Positions 2,660 to 22,196 of a DNA stretch of 22,196 nt are shown here, in pieces. The stretch is taken from positions 160,918 through 183,113 of IMG/VR virus record IMGVR_UViG_3300026549_000035; one strand, given 5' to 3'. Position 1 is the stretch's first letter. Every line of letters starts with the position of its first letter. The position numbers were made by a program, and so were the translations under genes. The notes under the pieces were generated by a model. The model searched no databases, was not told the DNA's origin, and saw nothing but the letters and a program-made list of their open reading frames with translations. The DNA comes from a virus.

Positions 2660-3058
2660 TTAACCAACAAGGCGGTAGCCGACTAAACGACGAGTCTTAT
2701 TATCTTCGCCCTTAATAGTAACTTCTCCCTTTTCAACACCAGAACCTTCAGTCTTATACAGAGCGTTCAATCTATAAGAAACTTTGGATAGGGTTACATC
2801 TTCGCCCTCAATTCGAGCCGCAATAGTAGCAATGCTCTCGAATTCATCAGTAAGAGCTTCCTTAACGGCTTCAGCAAGGGCATCTCCCTCAGCCTTCTTT
2901 GCAGCGGCAGCTTCCTTTGCTTTAGCAGCCTTACGGTCAAGCTGACCAATTTTCTTTTCAGCCCATTCCGCAATTACATCAGGATCAAGATCCTCAAGAG
3001 TTCCCTCTGCAATAGCGGCGTAAATCTTGCGGTCAGTAAGTTTTTCAGTGTTAGTCAT
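2660..3058 (-). CDS. Ala/Glu/Lys-rich acidic protein. It is compositionally GC-richer than its surroundings and is a paralog of 15697..16131.
   Basis: The ORF ends in TAA. ATG 3058 has an AAGGAG SD 10 nt upstream, and the track start TTG 3067 is too close to the SD. It shares the segment KAAKAKEAAAAKKAEGDALAEAVKEAL with KAAEAAKKAEAEAKAK of 15697..16131. It has its own class I promoter and strong terminator. Confidence 0.65.
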   Translation of the reverse strand: MTNTEKLTDRKIYAAIAEGTLEDLDPDVIAEWAEKKIGQLDRKAAKAKEAAAAKKAEGDALAEAVKEALTDEFESIATIAARIEGEDVTLSKVSYRLNALYKTEGSGVEKGEVTIKGEDNKTRRLVGYRLVG

Positions 3059-3129
3059 AATTTTCAATCTCCTTGATTAAAATATTTTTTATTATTTTTA
3101 TAAGATTTCTTTCTTTATCTTACATATAT

Positions 3130-16199: not shown

Positions 16200-16705
16200 A
16201 GGCTCGTAAAGCCACGAAAATTTTTCTGTGGAAAGAAATTCATGAGAACTTCCTTTTGGATAGCTGGGCTGATAAAAATCAGCCTTTGTAAATACGCCAT
16301 AGCAAAGATGAGAACTATGCGTTTTTCCCCGAACGGACATCCGAACGGGAATGGACAGGAACGAAAGAGCTGCGGAAAATTTTTGGTTTTTTTTAATATT
16401 ATACCAAAAAATTTTTTGAAAGTCAAACAAGTAATTATAAAAACAAACACCGAGCGGGGCCGGCAAGTAACTTTCAAATGAGATAAAAGCCATATGGGGC
16501 AAACACCGAACGGGGGCCCGCCCGGGGGGGCAGAGTGGTAAAAAAAAATTTCCCATTTCGGGAAAATGAGATGCCATATGGGGGGCCGCACTTGCCCTCG
16601 AAAAATTTGCATATGGGGTTAGGTGCGGGAATTCGGGCGACGTCTATTGTCGTCGGCCCGATGATTTTATCGCTTTAAGCCACTAAAGTGCCCGGGCGCA
16701 AACCC
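16200..16705. other. GC-rich non-coding island with reiterated CACCGAACGGGG and CATATGGGG motifs and several hairpins. The overlapping track ORFs here are judged spurious.
   Basis: caccgagcgggg at 16448, caccgaacgggg at 16504, ccccgaacgg and ccgaacggg near 16326..16347. catatgggg appears three times near 16491, 16575 and 16610. A bulged hairpin GGGCGACG...CGTCGGCCC is also present. Confidence 0.6.
16538..16568 (-). terminator. Rho-independent terminator for the minus-strand class II unit arrays
   Basis: Minus strand reads ATTTTCCCGAAATGGGAAAT followed by TTTTTTTTT. Confidence 0.7.
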
Positions 16706-17203: not shown

Positions 17204-17252
17204 ATTATAACATACTATAACTTAATTGTCAATAATTATTACAATTTTGTAA
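17204..17252 (-). promoter_or_regulatory. Class II promoter (TTGACA-17-TATAAT) with the upstream operator TTACAA-TT-TTGTAA (17239..17252)
   Basis: tgtcaa at 17227..17232, attata at 17204..17209 and ttacaattttgtaa at 17239..17252 on the plus strand. Confidence 0.7.
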
Positions 17253-17265
17253 CCAGCCCGGGTGC

Positions 17266-17863: not shown

Positions 17864-17917
17864 ATTATAGCACATCAAGATAAAAAAGTCAATAGTTAAA
17901 ATATTACAATTTTGTAA
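17864..17917 (-). promoter_or_regulatory. Class II promoter (TTGACT-17-TATAAT) with the operator TTACAATTTTGTAA (17904..17917) and the GCCCGGGCG box (17921..17929)
   Basis: agtcaa at 17887..17892 and attata at 17864..17869. The conserved leader is AAATACATCAAAAGAAAAGGAGATAAAAAAAATG. Confidence 0.7.
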
Positions 17918-17942
17918 TCTGCCCGGGCGCAAACCCCTTTGA

Positions 17943-18332: not shown

Positions 18333-18590
18333 TTAGTAATCAACACTAATGTAACACGCTTCACCACGAGTCATACCATTTTCAAGTAAAACTTCTGCAA
18401 CATAACGCTCAGGTTTATTTAATTCCTCAAAATCTTTTTCATCTTTAGGAATCCAAAAATAAATTGCGCCACTTTGTGGAGGGCAGTATGATTCGTTAAA
18501 TTCTCCTTCTACATCTTCACCATATTTTTTTTGAATAAGGGTAAAAACTTCACTGGAATCATACACTTTATACATTTTGAACTGAAACAT
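18333..18590 (-). CDS. hypothetical protein, 85 aa
   Basis: Class II promoter and operator upstream. Ends in TAA. Confidence 0.55.
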   Translation of the reverse strand: MFQFKMYKVYDSSEVFTLIQKKYGEDVEGEFNESYCPPQSGAIYFWIPKDEKDFEELNKPERYVAEVLLENGMTRGEACYISVDY

Positions 18591-18620: not shown

Positions 18621-18669
18621 AGTATAACACAGTCAGAAGAAAAAGTCAATAGCTATTACAATTTTGTAA
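18621..18669 (-). promoter_or_regulatory. Class II promoter (TTGACT-17-TATACT) with the operator TTACAATTTTGTAA (18656..18669) and the GCGCCCGGGCGC box (18684..18695)
   Basis: agtcaa at 18644..18649 and agtata at 18621..18626. Confidence 0.65.
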
Positions 18670-18695
18670 CTTTTTTTTTATTGCGCCCGGGCGCT

Positions 18696-18800
18696 CGGAG
18701 GCGTTTACACTCGCTATCCGAGGCACTACTCAGGAACGTGGTAGGAGCACGTCACTCTTTTCATGTCCTACCCTCGAATAGCAACTGTAAACGCCCCCAG
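18696..18800. ncRNA. A ~105-nt GC-rich long imperfect hairpin (about 30 bp paired in three stem segments) inserted between a gene-end hairpin and a promoter box. It is a candidate structured RNA or protein-binding palindrome of unknown class.
   Basis: Outer stem GGCGTTTACA/TGTAAACGCC, middle stem GCTATCCGAGG/CCTCGAATAGC with one wobble pair, inner stem GGTAGGA/TCCTACC. A 17-nt asymmetric loop contains ACGTG. It fails a tRNA cloverleaf test. Confidence 0.35.
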
Positions 18801-18805
18801 GGGGG

Positions 18806-18828
18806 GTTGAGGGGTTAACCCTCAACCT
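18806..18828 (-). other. Perfect 9-bp hairpin GGTTGAGGG-GTTAA-CCCTCAACC overlapping the stop of 18815..19212
   Basis: ggttgaggggttaaccctcaacc. Confidence 0.6.
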
Positions 18829-19212
18829 CAGCAGGAGCTTCATAGACTCCCACAGGAGCGAAGTAGGTTCTGCGCTTTACGCTACCCTTAGACAGCTCAC
18901 CGGCCTGAATAGCCTGACGAAGCAAAGCAGAAACATGCTGATTGCTGTCGCCTTCAACCGCAGGACACTCTTTGAGCAAATCGCTAACGGTGTAACCGTT
19001 CGACCCCTCAACAAAGTGAGTATCGATATACTCTACCAGACGCTCACGAACAACAGCGTTCTCAGTCTGACGAGCGGTAGGTTTACGCTCTATGCCAGAC
19101 TTCTTGTCGAGCTGTTCAACCATCTTCTGGAGCTTCTCAGCTACCTCGGTAGGCAGGTCATAACTCTCCAAACATAAGCAAGAGCCTTACGGTTAGTCAT
19201 CTTATTAGTCAT
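18815..19212 (-). CDS. GC-rich (roughly 50% by eye) putative DNA-binding protein of uncertain fold. The RBS-supported start ATG 19212 is out of frame by 1 nt with the long ORF, so there is a frameshift or indel near 19166..19176.
   Basis: AAAGGA SD 9 nt before ATG 19212, which gives MTNKMTNRKALAYV. The long ORF from TTG 19171 has no SD and reads ESYDLPTEVAEKLQKMVEQLDKK... Inserting one T in the TTT run joins them as ...ALAYVLESYDL.... Codon composition is unlike its neighbours. Confidence 0.5.
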
Positions 19213-19290
19213 AGTATCAATCCTTTCAGCGTTGGTCGCCACCCAAATTTTTATTGTCAAGGGAGGTTTTCCTTCCCTTTGACTGTCTTT

Positions 19291-19345
19291 ATTATATCAC
19301 ATAGAGAGGAAAAAGTCAAGGGGGTTTTCAAATTTTTTTGAAAAT
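19291..19345 (-). promoter_or_regulatory. Class II-type promoter (TTGACT-17-TATAAT) with a different upstream palindrome, TTTTCAAA-N4-TTTGAAAA (19326..19345), and a structured leader
   Basis: agtcaa at 19314..19319 and attata at 19291..19296. The leader hairpin GTCAAAGGGAAGG-AAAA-CCTCCCTTGAC is at 19256..19286. Confidence 0.55.
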
Positions 19346-19533
19346 CTGTTTCGTTACCGTGTATCCACAAAAGAGAGAACCTCGTGGGAGGGACTTTTTA
19401 TCTCTCTCCCCTTGACTGTAATATTATTATAGCAGATTCAATTGGTTTTGTCTATTGGCAAAATGCACAAAGGATTTTCAACATTTTGTTTTATTTTGTG
19501 CATTTTGCCGGGGCACCCGGGCGCTGAGTGCTA

Positions 19534-19866
19534 TTACGAAATAAAGGCAATAGCACGACAGTCAGGCTTCCACTCAAAAAACTTTTCTAAGTGATATTTA
19601 TTATAGAATTTTAAAAATGCTTGTTCATCTTTTGGATTTAAAACATACTTATCTTTATTAAATTCTTTAATATCTTCACCATAGTCAAGGATAGTATACA
19701 CAACCCCAACAAAATGCTCTTCGTCTGCCCAATCATTAAGGCATTTTGCCCATTTGTTTTCCCAGCCTTCACGGTCATTAATATCCTCAATAATATCTTC
19801 AATTGCTTCAAAATCTTCTTTACTAATAATTATGCCGTAACCAATAGCAAAAGAAAAATCTATAGC
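19534..19866 (-). CDS. hypothetical protein, about 110 aa from ATG 19866
   Basis: An AAAGGAG SD lies 9 nt before ATG 19866, and the track start at 19878 abuts the SD. It is in an operon after 19897..20337. The stop is embedded in the hairpin GTGCTATT...AATAGCAC. Confidence 0.5.
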   Translation of the reverse strand, partial: AIDFSFAIGYGIIISKEDFEAIEDIIEDINDREGWENKWAKCLNDWADEEHFVGVVYTILDYGEDIKEFNKDKYVLNPKDEQAFLKFYNKYHLEKFFEWKPDCRAIAFIS

Positions 19867-19896
19867 CATTTTTTTCATCTCCTTTCTTTGTCCCCC

Positions 19897-20389: not shown

Positions 20390-20469
20390 AAAATGTCAAT
20401 ACTTTTTCTATTATTATTATAACAAATTTTTTAATATTTTTCAAAGAAGTCTTTTTGCGCCCGGGCGTA

Positions 20470-20807: not shown

Positions 20808-20834
20808 GCCAGACCTCCCCCATTAAAAGGGGAG
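20808..20834 (-). other. Perfect 9-bp hairpin GACCTCCCC-ATTAAAA-GGGGAGGTC overlapping the stop of the HD gene
   Basis: gacctcccccattaaaaggggaggtc. Confidence 0.6.
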
Positions 20835-21433
20835 GTCGCTGTCGTCAAGGATAAAATCCTCGGGGTGAGCGTCAATCTCATACTCTGCGGTAAGAGTAGG
20901 AATATCCCAAAATGACCTTGAAGCAATATAATCAGACAAGTGAACAAGGCGGTCAACAGGGGTGAAAGGTCTATCTTCTTTCGGCTCAGTCCATTGACCC
21001 ATGTGTGACTTAATCGCCAGTAAAAGCACTTCGGGAGCTTCTTCATTGAAAAATTCCTGCCATGCTTCTTTAACAGCATTTGAAGCGTGCAAACCGTGTT
21101 GCTTGAAGCAATTTTTATCTTCTTCTAAACCGCCGTATTTATAAGTGTCGTGAAGAATACAAGCGACTTTTGCATAATCTTTGTATTCATCTCTCATATA
21201 CGCATAAGTATTCATGCGTAAAAGTTCTTCACATACCATCACAACGGCTCTTGTATGACGAATTAAACCGCCCTCGCCCTGAGCGAATACAGGGTGATAT
21301 TTACCAGAAGAAGAAGCCCCAGACTTTTTAAACCATTCCCCAACACGAGTGTCAAGAAAAAATCGAGTGAAGTCTTTCAAATCTTCGCTTTGGATAAGCT
21401 GGATTTCACGCTCAAAAAATTTACTTAACTGCA
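20823..21433 (-). CDS. HD-domain metal-dependent phosphohydrolase, about 203 aa from ATG 21433
   Basis: H..H (GKYHP...IRHTRAV), HD (ACILHDTYKYG), H (HGLHASN) and D (LVHLSDY) motifs. An AAAGGA SD is 10 nt before ATG 21433. The track start at 21533 would run through the promoter and operator, so it is rejected. Confidence 0.6.
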
Positions 21434-21459
21434 TTTGTATCAAATCCTTTCTCTCTTTG

Positions 21460-21531
21460 ATTACAATGTAATTATAGCACACTCTGTCGGAAATGTCAAT
21501 AGTTATTACAAAATTGTAACCGCGCCCGGGC
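21460..21531 (-). promoter_or_regulatory. Class II promoter (TTGACA-17-TATAAT) flanked by two operators, TTACAAAATTGTAA (21505..21518, upstream) and TTACAATGTAA (21460..21470, over the -10/+1), plus the CGCGCCCGGGC box
   Basis: tgtcaa at 21493..21498 and attata at 21470..21475. Confidence 0.65.
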
Positions 21532-21546
21532 AAAAAATGGGAAGTT

Positions 21547-21795: not shown

Positions 21796-22070
21796 TAAAA
21801 AACTCTCTCCTTTCCTTTTCTTTCAATAAAATCTGCTAAATAAGTTTCCACTTCAGCAGGACGATTAATAAGATCTTCGATAAATTCGGTAAAATTACCA
21901 TTACCATAAACAGCTTTTATAAAATCAGTCAGTTCATACTGCTGATGAAGTTCTTGGTAAATGAATTCTTTGAAATTTTCAAGAATATTCAAAGTTCCTT
22001 TTAGACTTAATACATCTTCCGAGGAAAAGGTAAAGTCAATACTGATTGTTTTACTGGCAGAAAGTTTCAT
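21795..22070 (-). CDS. hypothetical protein, 91 aa
   Basis: An AAAGGAAAT SD lies 7 nt upstream, directly after the poly(T) tract. Ends in TAA. Confidence 0.5.
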   Translation of the reverse strand: MKLSASKTISIDFTFSSEDVLSLKGTLNILENFKEFIYQELHQQYELTDFIKAVYGNGNFTEFIEDLINRPAEVETYLADFIERKGKERVF

Positions 22071-22084
22071 TGTTTTATTTCCTT

Positions 22085-22182
<98 letters not shown>

Positions 22183-22196
22183 CTCTTTCTCTCACT

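What the first reader, a model, noticed from the sequence alone, without database searches (positions are those of the whole stretch)
18696..18800. A ~105-nt GC-rich long imperfect hairpin inserted into one class II intergenic unit
Only this unit has an extra element between the gene-end hairpin and the GCCCGGGCG box. It is one long imperfect hairpin, ~105 nt end to end, with three stem segments (GGCGTTTACA/TGTAAACGCC, GCTATCCGAGG/CCTCGAATAGC, GGTAGGA/TCCTACC) and an asymmetric 17-nt loop carrying ACGTG that could pair with the apical CACGT. It sits 3' of the GC-rich, apparently horizontally acquired gene 18815..19212. It could be an sRNA, a 3'UTR stability or anti-termination element, or a small palindromic mobile element (MITE-like).
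Basis: seen in the sequence. Interest (0 to 1): 0.55.

Follow-up and report, generated by a model that had tools for sequence, protein, structure and literature searches.

The report
Conserved phage 3'-end RNA hairpin module
The ~100-nt hairpin is real: it is a conserved, strand-specific RNA structure at the 3' end of an early gene in uncultured Firmicute-type phages, absent from Rfam, and its exact job (probably mRNA 3'-end processing or protection, and release of a small RNA) is still unproven.

Summary
The hairpin exists as described, at window 18697-18798, and reads as RNA on the minus (gene-sense) strand. It folds at -55.6 kcal/mol (z -7.6), about 12 kcal/mol better than the antisense strand. 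It is not a chance palindrome. Near-identical "type A" copies lie at the same place in eight other metagenomic phage contigs. They are 95-99% identical where measured, while the adjacent gene is only 75-78% identical. A diverged "type B" (58% identical) keeps every helix through compensatory and wobble changes. Two inner helices that cannot fully coexist are both kept. GAAA and AGUAGUGCC are invariant. The element replaces the short hairpin that normally precedes the GCGCCCGGGCGC box of these phages' hairpin-box-promoter units. Close relatives carry that short hairpin, other ~100-nt hairpins (types C, D) or a tRNA-Lys instead. Only one copy was seen per stretch examined, none was found in bacterial genomes, and there is no target-site duplication, Rfam match or conserved ORF. 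Best reading: a new structured RNA module in the 3' UTR of an early winged-helix gene. Its ~27-bp stem is a likely RNase III-type processing or stabilising site, and the conserved apical domain probably binds a specific partner. Function is inferred, not shown.

The parts
18697..18798 (-). Type A long hairpin RNA element (102 nt), read 5'->3' from 18798 to 18697
   Evidence: CM R1 hit of 117.5 bits on the minus strand versus 43.8 on the plus strand. Fold -55.6 kcal/mol, z -7.58. Eight other type A copies are near-identical.
18786..18798 (-). P1 5' arm GGGGGCGUUUACA, including the UUUACA shared by types A, B and D
   Evidence: Pairs with 18697-18709. 13 bp. The outer 7 pairs covary between types A and B, while UUACA/UGUAA never varies.
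18697..18709 (-). P1 3' arm UGUAAACGCCUCC
   Evidence: The A/G polymorphism at the sixth base gives U-A or U-G with its partner in the sense strand.
18772..18783 (-). P2 5' arm UGCUAUUCGAGG
   Evidence: 12 bp with 18712-18723. Three pairs changed on both sides between types A and B, and five more changed on one side (mostly to G-U) while staying paired. No substitution in the nine type A copies.
18712..18723 (-). P2 3' arm CCUCGGAUAGCG
18766..18770 (-). S1 5' strand UAGGA (extends P2 in conformer I; complementary to the apical loop of S2)
   Evidence: Pairs with 18742-18746. 5 bp, 100% paired, with two compensatory pairs between types A and B (U-A to C-G, A-U to C-G). It is broken in the natural variant L183.
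18742..18746 (-). S1 3' strand UCCUA, lying in the 7-nt loop of S2
18748..18755 (-). S2 5' arm GUGACGUG
   Evidence: Pairs with 18733-18740. Three pairs changed on both sides between A and B, plus wobble changes within types.
18733..18740 (-). S2 3' arm CACGUUCC
18759..18762 (-). Invariant GAAA on the 5' side of the apical domain
   Evidence: Invariant in types A and B. In conformer II it lies opposite AGUA. Reading this as a loop-E/sarcin-ricin-like motif is inference.
18722..18730 (-). Invariant AGUAGUGCC (3' asymmetric loop plus the first two P2 pairs)
   Evidence: Invariant in all type A and B copies.
18807..18827 (-). Gene-end hairpin GUUGAGGGUUAACCCCUCAAC with the UAA stop codon in its loop
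   Evidence: Sequence. A compensatory U-A/C-G change is seen among orthologues.
18683..18694 (.). GCGCCCGGGCGC palindromic box, 2 nt after P1
   Evidence: 6 matches in the window versus 0.03 expected. It is present at the same place in most related loci.
18815..19212 (-). Upstream early gene: GC-rich, ~132-aa family with a winged-helix C-terminal domain. The window copy carries a 1-nt deletion (frameshift) near 19170.
   Evidence: 287 homologues. Alignment column 182. AF2 model with pLDDT 86.7 and weak ArsR/MarR/DsrD-type winged-helix matches.
19291..19319 (-). Sigma-70-type promoter that drives the gene and, by read-through, the hairpin. A second promoter lies at 19426-19454.
   Evidence: 11/12 consensus matches with TG extension.
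18621..18669 (-). Next unit: TTACAAAATTGTAA palindrome (18656-18669) and the promoter of gene 18333-18590 (18621-18649)
   Evidence: (D10/D11).

Best explanation
The element is a structured RNA module. It is transcribed as the 3' end of the early winged-helix gene's mRNA, from the strong promoters at 19291-19319 and 19426-19454, with no promoter or terminator in between. It is the 'long' allele of the hairpin that normally sits just before the GCGCCCGGGCGC box in these phages' repeated hairpin-box-promoter units. It folds into a ~27-bp basal duplex: P1 of 13 bp, one G-G mismatch flanked by a U-A pair, and P2 of 12 bp. The duplex centre carries an invariant UUUACA/UGUAA. On top sits a ~50-nt apical domain with two mutually exclusive conserved helices (S1 or S2) and invariant GAAA and AGUAGUGCC. 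The proposed mechanism is inferred. The long duplex defines and protects the 3' end of the upstream mRNA and is a substrate for host RNase III, as at the inter-cistronic hairpins of T7 and SP82 early transcripts. Cleavage would release a discrete ~60-100-nt RNA whose sequence-constrained apical domain binds a specific protein or RNA partner. Shown: existence, strand, structure conservation, single copy, allelic replacement. Inferred: transcription, cleavage, partner binding.
For: The fold is far beyond shuffles and stronger on the sense strand in all three cases tested: window -55.6 vs -43.6, L006 -66.1 vs -39.7, L053 -59.0 vs -46.6 kcal/mol.

Between types A and B, 96.9% of cells are paired and 13 pairs changed on both sides. 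0/500 shuffles reach the observed paired percentage or covariation score. Slid controls give 44-48% paired.

Within types, 8 of 9 stem substitution events keep pairing, including one GC-to-CG swap.

Conservation exceeds the flanks. Type A elements are 95-99% identical against 75-78% for the gene and 52-55% for the window's downstream sequence. Type B is 91% against 63.5%. Type C is 86% against 60%. P2, GAAA and AGUAGUGCC are invariant in nine type A contigs.

The position is the same in every copy: gene-end hairpin, then the element, then the box 2-5 nt later. TTTACA to CCCGGG spans 105-108 nt in types A, B and D.

No intrinsic terminator or promoter lies between the gene and the element. The continuous duplex of about 27 bp exceeds the roughly two helical turns RNase III needs (established knowledge). 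[quoted passage not shown] The window's HD-domain gene has distant relatives in SPO1-like phages and Clostridium phage c-st.
Against: There are no transcript data, so neither cleavage nor a discrete RNA is shown.

Most orthologous loci manage with a 10-15-bp hairpin, so the long form is dispensable for basic gene-end function.

A generic stabiliser or RNase III site would not need near-invariant loops. The strong sequence constraint could instead reflect recent recombinational spread of the module.

Covariation rests on essentially two lineages (A and B). One natural type A variant (L183) breaks S1, and two (L183, L184) carry an A-C mismatch in P1.

The loci sampled were all fetched through the upstream gene family, so association with that gene is partly a sampling effect.
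Confidence: 0.45

Rival explanations
1. It is mainly a trans-acting accessory RNA, for example a decoy or scaffold for a host or phage factor with a possible anti-defence role. On this reading the gene's 3' UTR is only its delivery vehicle, and any cis effect on the mRNA is incidental.
For: Loops and P2 are near-invariant within a type. Several alternative ~100-nt hairpin types (A-D) of constant size occupy the same site, and close relatives differ in which one they carry, which is a pattern typical of accessory or arms-race loci. In related loci a tRNA-Lys or an odd tRNA-like gene lies between this gene family and the box. The conserved bulge/loop complementarity (UAGGA/UCCUA; CAGGC/GCCUG) and the GAAA/AGUA internal loop are typical interaction surfaces.
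Against: It has no promoter of its own. No complementary target was found in the phage sequence held. There is no similarity to any Rfam family, CRISPR repeats included. No partner has been identified. tRNA-bearing loci keep a separate short pre-box hairpin, so the long hairpin is not strictly in the tRNA position.
Confidence: 0.25
2. It is a selfish or neutral palindromic module. It spreads between the conserved hairpin-box-promoter units by homologous recombination or gene conversion, as cassettes bounded by T4 PeSL motifs do. On this reading its high identity reflects recent spread, not function.
For: The distribution is patchy. Type B follows two paralogues that are only about 54% identical (protein), while their closest relatives (92% and 77% identical) have the short hairpin. 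Type C likewise follows an orthologue and a paralogue. Conserved flanks (the C-run/G-run and the 12-bp box) could serve as crossover points. PeSL-mediated shuffling is documented in T4-like phages (PMC2839356, PMC4122927).
Against: Only one copy was seen per stretch examined, none in bacterial genomes, and there is no target-site duplication. The conservation boundary coincides with the P1 stem rather than extending into the flanks. Substitutions within types preserve pairing (8 of 9 events), and types A and B kept all helices through about 42% divergence. Both observations indicate selection on structure.
Confidence: 0.15
3. It works at the DNA level, as a cruciform or single-strand hairpin. 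Candidate roles are a recombination site (attC-like), a replication or packaging signal, or a protein-binding inverted repeat, for example for the adjacent winged-helix protein.
For: It is a long inverted repeat next to a perfect 12-bp palindrome and follows a predicted DNA-binding protein gene. It is single copy. Hairpins of variable length at the 3' ends of gene cassettes recall integron attC sites.
Against: At least 4-5 G-U pairs per copy become A-C mismatches on the other strand, and the antisense fold is 12-26 kcal/mol weaker. As double-stranded DNA, covariation would be unnecessary. The attC core sites RYYYAAC/GTTRRRY are absent: the element has GTTTACA/TGTAAAC. Most relatives lack the element, so it cannot be an essential origin or packaging site.
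Confidence: 0.08

Closest known systems
RNase III processing hairpins between early genes of phages T7 and SP82/SPO1
   Same: It is a long imperfect hairpin between two cistrons of a strongly transcribed phage early region. It has a duplex of more than two helical turns with a small internal mismatch and conserved sequence around the duplex centre. The host lineage (Firmicute-type promoters, distant SPO1/c-st-like HD gene) matches the SP82 precedent.
   Different: There is only one such hairpin in 22 kb rather than one per gene junction. It is about 100 nt with a conserved, bistable or pseudoknot-capable apical domain. No sequence similarity was tested or is known. Cleavage is not shown.
PeSL (promoter-early stem-loop) composite motifs of T4-type phages
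   Same: Repeated intergenic units combine a stem-loop with an early promoter and flank small variable genes. Related phages differ by replacement of modules at these units (PMC4122927).
   Different: The sequence is different, there is an extra GCGCCCGGGCGC box, and the phage lineage is different. The finding concerns an unusually long, sequence-conserved variant of the stem-loop, not the unit itself.
phi29-family prohead RNA (pRNA, Rfam RF00044)
   Same: It is a phage RNA of about 100-120 nt with paired ends and a bulge/loop pair whose complementarity covaries between otherwise diverged relatives. Intramolecular pairing of the two is sterically constrained, which in pRNA means intermolecular ring formation.
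   Different: There is no Rfam hit. The phage type is different (contigs of roughly 140-240 kb). The element is dispensable in most relatives, so it cannot be an essential packaging RNA. Multimerisation is pure conjecture here.
Integron attC sites
   Same: Imperfect palindromes of variable length (here about 26 to 113 nt) lie at the 3' end of small genes, the structure is strand-specific, and the terminal structure is variable.
   Different: The core sites RYYYAAC/GTTRRRY are absent. Each gene has its own promoter. No integrase was seen. The context is a lytic-type phage.

Membership tests
Any Rfam 15 family | Covariance-model score at or above the family gathering threshold | tested here: not met
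   There were 0 hits in the whole window at gathering thresholds. With E<=10 the hairpin matched only mir-617 at 19 bits against a threshold of 80, which is generic long-hairpin noise.
tRNA / tmRNA | Cloverleaf detected by ARAGORN | tested here: not met
   0 genes in the window. Related loci do carry tRNA-Lys after the same gene family.
Intrinsic (Rho-independent) terminator | GC-rich hairpin immediately followed by a U-tract on the transcribed strand | tested here: not met
   On the minus strand the element is followed by GA, then GCGCCCGGGCGC, then AAUAAAAAAAAAG. The scan found no minus-strand terminator there. In L001, L014 and L169 a T-run follows the box, so the feature is not conserved.
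RNase III processing site (T7/SP82 type) | Duplex of at least ~20 bp with small internal distortions, inside a transcript between cistrons | tested here: met
   P1 (13 bp), a G-G mismatch flanked by a U-A pair, and P2 (12 bp). Promoters lie upstream with no terminator between.
RNase III processing site (T7/SP82 type) | Cleavage by RNase III in vivo or in vitro | not testable with these tools
   No transcript or enzymatic data are available.
MITE / dispersed palindromic repeat | Many dispersed copies in the genome or host | tested here: not met
   One copy in the window and one in each locus held. The IMG/VR motif scan found only the one known copy on a 200-kb contig. The 69 pattern hits in 185,579 genomes all fail the CM.
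MITE / dispersed palindromic repeat | Target-site duplication flanking an insertion into an otherwise intact site | tested here: not met
   Comparing L006 with L173, whose downstream flanks are near-identical, shows the short hairpin replaced by the long one with no direct repeats.
Integron attC | R''/R' core sites RYYYAAC ... GTTRRRY at the base of the folded strand | tested here: not met
   The stem carries GTTTACA ... TGTAAAC in type A and CTTTACA ... TGTAAGG in type B. There is no AAC/GTT.
PeSL-like regulatory cassette (analogy, not homology) | Repeated intergenic composite of a stem-loop and an early promoter that flanks variable small genes and marks module replacement | tested here: met
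   Repeat families D3, D7, D10 and D11 plus the box. Consensus promoters. Replacements between close relatives.
Loop E / sarcin-ricin (bulged-G) motif | AGUA opposite GAA in an internal loop flanked by helices | tested here: inconclusive
   Invariant GAAA and AGUA face each other in conformer II, flanked by a 3-bp helix (100% paired, with one-sided changes only) and by S2. The 3D geometry cannot be tested.
phi29 pRNA | Match to RF00044, and an essential role in packaging in every family member | tested here: not met
   No Rfam hit. The element is absent from most related phages.

The most novel reading that the evidence does not exclude
The hairpin may be one member of a polymorphic set of ~100-nt phage 'cargo' RNAs (types A-D). 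These share a fixed-size duplex handle (UUUACA/UGUAA core) and carry interchangeable apical domains. They would be cut out of an early mRNA and act in trans, for example as decoys or scaffolds for a host factor or an RNA-targeting defence. Alternatively they could self-associate through the covarying bulge/loop pair, as phi29 pRNA does. On this reading the S1/S2 alternative folds would be a functional switch.
Probability: 0.2. Interest if true: 0.75.

Novelty: new member of a known kind. Interest (0 to 1): 0.45.

Why it matters
If the best reading is right, this adds an undescribed structured RNA motif to the small catalogue of phage-encoded RNA elements. It also shows that the repeated hairpin-box-promoter units of a large, uncultured group of Firmicute-type phages carry exchangeable RNA modules (short hairpin, four kinds of ~100-nt hairpin, tRNA-Lys) at one site. 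That gives a concrete, testable case of how phage early transcripts are processed and stabilised in Gram-positive hosts, where only the SP82 sites are classical examples. It may also be a possible entry point to phage accessory RNAs. If the hairpin is only a stabiliser spread by recombination, it is an ordinary feature with an unusually clean comparative signature.

Tried and rejected
- **GenBank phages.** Megablast and blastn of the region gave no match. tblastn of the upstream protein gave no match either.
- **Rfam.** Gathering and E-value modes found nothing relevant.
- **tRNA or tmRNA.** None in the window.
- **Small ORF inside the element.** No frame is open or conserved across types A and B, and L053 has a frame-breaking indel.
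- **sRNA with a target in the phage.** The complement of the invariant loop (GGCACUACU) is absent from sense strands of the window and the element-bearing loci.
- **MITE.** Rejected on copy number, absence from hosts and lack of a target-site duplication.
- **attC.** Rejected on the core-site consensus.
- **Intrinsic terminator.** No U-tract in the window.
- **Similarity of the CUCCUA loop to the 23S sarcin-ricin stem, to the anti-SD, or to an anticodon loop (CCU).** Only type A fits, so these were treated as coincidence.
- **Link between TTACA/TGTAA in the stem and the TTACAAAATTGTAA operator-like palindrome.** The palindrome is absent next to the element in L001 and L006, so this was treated as coincidence.
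- **Paralogy of gene 2660-3067 with the upstream gene.** BLASTP gives only E 0.028 over 23 residues, so it is not established.
- **Generic screen for long hairpins in all loci.** It was too noisy in GC-rich loci to count other types.
- **Caveat on the large CM search.** With default filters over 322 kb it did not report the type C hairpin in L041, although type C in L180 scored 39 bits in a small search. Weak relatives may therefore have been missed.

Full report
**Observation**

The window is AT-rich (about 27-33% GC over most of its length). It consists of small genes, mostly on the minus strand, each preceded by a near-consensus sigma-70-type promoter.

Between 16.9 and 21.6 kb the intergenic units read, on the minus strand: stop codon, short hairpin, GCGCCCGGGCGC-like palindrome, and promoter. 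Several units also carry a TTACAAAATTGTAA palindrome before the promoter. The box gives 6 matches against 0.03 expected.

It folds far better than shuffled sequence: -55.6 kcal/mol, z -7.58 on the minus strand, and -43.6, z -5.88 on the plus strand (with flanks). It was the only hit in the window of an inverted-repeat-plus-fold screen.

**The element is conserved, and as RNA on the gene-sense strand**

The gene upstream (18815-19212, minus strand) has 287 homologues of about 132 aa in metagenomes. I fetched their loci.

- **Type A.** The same hairpin lies at the same position in eight further contigs: L001, L014, L015, L169, L170, L179, L183 and L184.
- **Type B.** A diverged version, 58% identical, lies in L006 (a 200-kb IMG/VR contig) and L053.
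- **Flank comparison.** Among the window, L001, L014 and L015, the type A elements are 95-99% identical. The adjacent coding sequence is only 75-78% identical, and the window's downstream DNA is 52-55% identical to the others. L014 and L015 are near-identical to each other throughout. Type B copies are 91% identical against 63.5% for their genes. The alignment shows the block of identity starting and ending at the P1 stem.

On a six-sequence alignment the structure P1/P2/S2 plus S1 is 96.9% paired. Thirteen pairs changed on both sides, and 0/500 column shuffles reach the observed paired percentage or covariation score. Slid controls give 44-48% paired.

Within types, 8 of 9 stem substitution events keep pairing. 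One is a GC-to-CG double change and the others are wobble transitions that work only on the sense strand.

The sense strand folds 12-26 kcal/mol better than the antisense strand in the window, L006 and L053. No reading frame is conserved.

I conclude that a sense-strand RNA (or, less likely, sense single-stranded DNA) structure is under selection. One caveat applies: the covariation comes from essentially two lineages.

**Anatomy**

- **Basal duplex.** P1 has 13 bp. It is followed by one G-G mismatch flanked by a U-A pair, and then by P2 with 12 bp. Together they make a duplex of about 27 bp.
- **Invariant core.** UUUACA/UGUAA in the middle of the duplex never varies in types A, B and D.
- **Apical domain.** About 50 nt can form either S1 or S2.
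  - S1 is UAGGA/UCCUA in type A and CAGGC/GCCUG in type B, and it extends P2.
  - S2 is GACGUG/CACGUU in type A and UCAACGC/GCGUUGA in type B.
- **S1 and S2 compete.** Each helix has compensatory changes. S1's 3' strand is the loop of S2 with only about 1 nt of linker. A full pseudoknot therefore looks sterically unlikely (inference), and the two folds differ by only 3.4-4.5 kcal/mol.
- **Natural variation.** The MFE fold is conformer I in type A and conformer II in type B. The natural variant L183, which breaks S1, flips to conformer II.
- **Possible loop-E motif.** In conformer II the invariant GAAA faces the invariant AGUA, between a 3-bp helix and S2. This matches the loop-E/sarcin-ricin consensus, but that reading is my inference.
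- **Invariant parts.** P2, GAAA and AGUAGUGCC show no substitution in nine type A contigs.

**Context and distribution**

The element always sits between the gene-end hairpin, whose loop holds the stop codon, and the GCGCCCGGGCGC box. TTTACA to CCCGGG spans 105-108 nt in types A, B and D.

Most orthologous loci have a 10-15-bp hairpin there instead. That short hairpin usually has a CUUUAG or CUUUAC loop and itself shows covariation.

Close relatives differ by replacement.

- L173 has a protein 92% identical to L006's and near-identical downstream flanks. It carries the short hairpin where L006 has type B.
- L177 has a protein 77% identical to L053's and also carries the short hairpin.
- L053's protein belongs to a different paralogue subfamily from L006's.

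Two further ~100-nt hairpin types exist at the same site.

- Type C is in L041 and in L180-182. The copies are 86% identical against 60% for the genes, and they follow a paralogue and an orthologue respectively.
- Type D is in L185. It shares UUUACAGUUGC/GCGAGUGUAA with type A but has a different apical domain.

In at least 11 other loci a tRNA-Lys (UUU or CUU) lies after the same gene family. In several of these it sits between the gene-end hairpin and a short pre-box hairpin.

The element appears once in each locus held. The strict motif scan of IMG/VR found only the known L006 copy. None of the 69 pattern hits in 185,579 bacterial and archaeal genomes matches the covariance model. There is no Rfam match.

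The sampling is biased, because all loci were fetched through the upstream gene. The large CM search with default filters also did not report type C in L041, so weak relatives may have been missed.

**The phage and the gene**

There is no nucleotide match among GenBank phages. The HD-domain gene at 20823-21533 has distant relatives in Clostridium phage c-st and in SPO1-like Bacillus phages. Related contigs are 138-240 kb. This points to an uncultured, large Firmicute-type phage group.

The upstream protein is predicted with pLDDT 86.7 to be helical with a C-terminal winged helix. Foldseek matches to ArsR/SmtB, MarR and DsrD are weak (E 0.01-0.09).

The orthologues examined are about 11-17 GC points above their surrounding locus. 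High GC therefore looks like a family trait and is not evidence of recent transfer. The window copy has a 1-nt deletion that shifts the frame after codon 14.

**Mechanism**

No promoter or terminator separates the gene from the hairpin. It should therefore be transcribed as the 3' UTR, and by read-through it lies between two cistrons.

A 27-bp duplex with one mismatch is a canonical RNase III substrate (established knowledge). The closest precedents are the inter-cistronic RNase III hairpins of T7 early RNA and the B. subtilis RNase III sites in SP82 early mRNA (cited in PMC4838370).

The repeated hairpin-box-promoter units resemble the PeSL promoter/stem-loop composites that mediate module shuffling in T4-type phages (PMC2839356, PMC4122927).

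My best explanation (confidence 0.45) has three parts.

- It is a long allele of the cassette hairpin.
- It defines and protects the mRNA 3' end and is processed by RNase III.
- Processing releases a small RNA whose sequence-constrained apical domain binds a specific partner.

The rivals are:

- a mainly trans-acting accessory RNA (0.25);
- a selfish or neutral module spread by recombination (0.15);
- a DNA-level site (0.08).

The invariance of loops and P2 argues against a purely generic stabiliser. The structure-preserving substitutions argue against pure neutrality. The G-U asymmetry argues against a double-stranded DNA role.

**Comparison with known families**

It works most like a T7/SP82-type processing hairpin inside a PeSL-like cassette. 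It is not a member of any Rfam family, and it is not a tRNA, an intrinsic terminator, a MITE, an attC site or a pRNA. The defining features of each were tested and not met (see membership rows).

**Verdict**

The finding is a real, conserved structured RNA motif that is absent from Rfam, in uncultured phages. Its function is inferred only. I rate it a new member of a known kind (phage inter-cistronic structured hairpin). There is a modest chance (about 0.2) that it represents a more interesting class of exchangeable phage cargo RNAs. Interest 0.45.

Noticed in passing
window 19165-19175 (gene 18815-19212, minus strand): There is a 1-nt deletion relative to all orthologues (TATGTT-TGGAG versus TATGTTCTGGAG). 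It puts the first 14 codons out of frame with the rest. This could be a pseudogene, a sequencing error or an internal TTG start, while the hairpin downstream is intact.
   Followed up: partly
window 16688-16699, 17919-17930, 18683-18694, 19513-19524, 20457-20468, 21522-21533 (also 17255 and 20795): A GCGCCCGGGCGC-like palindrome (containing a SmaI site) sits just upstream of the promoter in almost every class II intergenic unit (6 hits versus 0.03 expected). It is conserved at the same place in phages whose loci run from 38 to 50% GC. Its role is unknown; it could be a protein site, a mini-hairpin or a recombination point.
   Followed up: partly
L010, L013, L034, L048, L060, L061, L073, L079, L080, L082 (downstream of the homologous gene); L020:1924-1997; L028:1922-1993: tRNA-Lys (UUU or CUU) genes recur after orthologues and paralogues of the winged-helix gene, immediately after it in several loci. 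Two loci have tRNA-like genes with aberrant anticodon loops. A link to tRNA-Lys-targeting host defences is possible but untested.
   Followed up: partly
L041:1887-1984, L180:~918-1015, L185:909-1008: Two further types of ~100-nt hairpin (C and D) occupy the same pre-box position. Type C is 86% identical between loci whose genes are 60% identical. Type D shares the UUUACAGUUGC/GCGAGUGUAA duplex with type A but has a different apical domain.
   Followed up: partly
window 16200-16690 (minus strand): A ~500-nt GC-rich stretch has no convincing ORF and carries its own consensus promoter (around 16397-16425). It contains CCCCATATGG three times and CGYTCGGTGTTTG twice. There is no Rfam hit, and the overall fold is not better than shuffles (z -1.2).
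   Followed up: partly
window 19213-19330 (minus strand) and the tandem promoters up to 19454: The 5' leader of the gene (AAAUUUGGGUGGCGACCAACGCUGAAAGGAUUGAUACUAUG) is invariant in 5 of 6 type A loci aligned. Tandem promoters upstream each start short GUCAAGGG... RNAs. A sub-threshold match to Rfam cow-rumen-4 (18 bits against 48.5) lies at 19232-19284.
   Followed up: no
window 22070-22196: A run of more than 100 T, with a few interruptions, lies at the end of the window. It may be a genome terminus, an assembly artefact or a homopolymer tract.
   Followed up: no
window 18807-18827 and orthologous loci: The stop codon of the gene lies in the loop of a gene-end hairpin in the orthologues examined. 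A compensatory U-A/C-G change is seen among type A loci, so translation termination would open this hairpin right next to the base of P1.
   Followed up: no
window 18656-18669, 17240-17253, 17905-17918, 21507-21520: A TTACAAAATTGTAA palindrome lies 8-10 nt upstream of the -35 hexamer in several class II units, like an operator. It is absent from the units of more GC-rich relatives.
   Followed up: no
window 19534-19878 (minus strand): The neighbouring 114-aa protein gives only sub-threshold Pfam hits to AcrIC5 (E 0.005) and Tad5 (E 0.018). This is a weak hint of an anti-defence neighbourhood.
   Followed up: no
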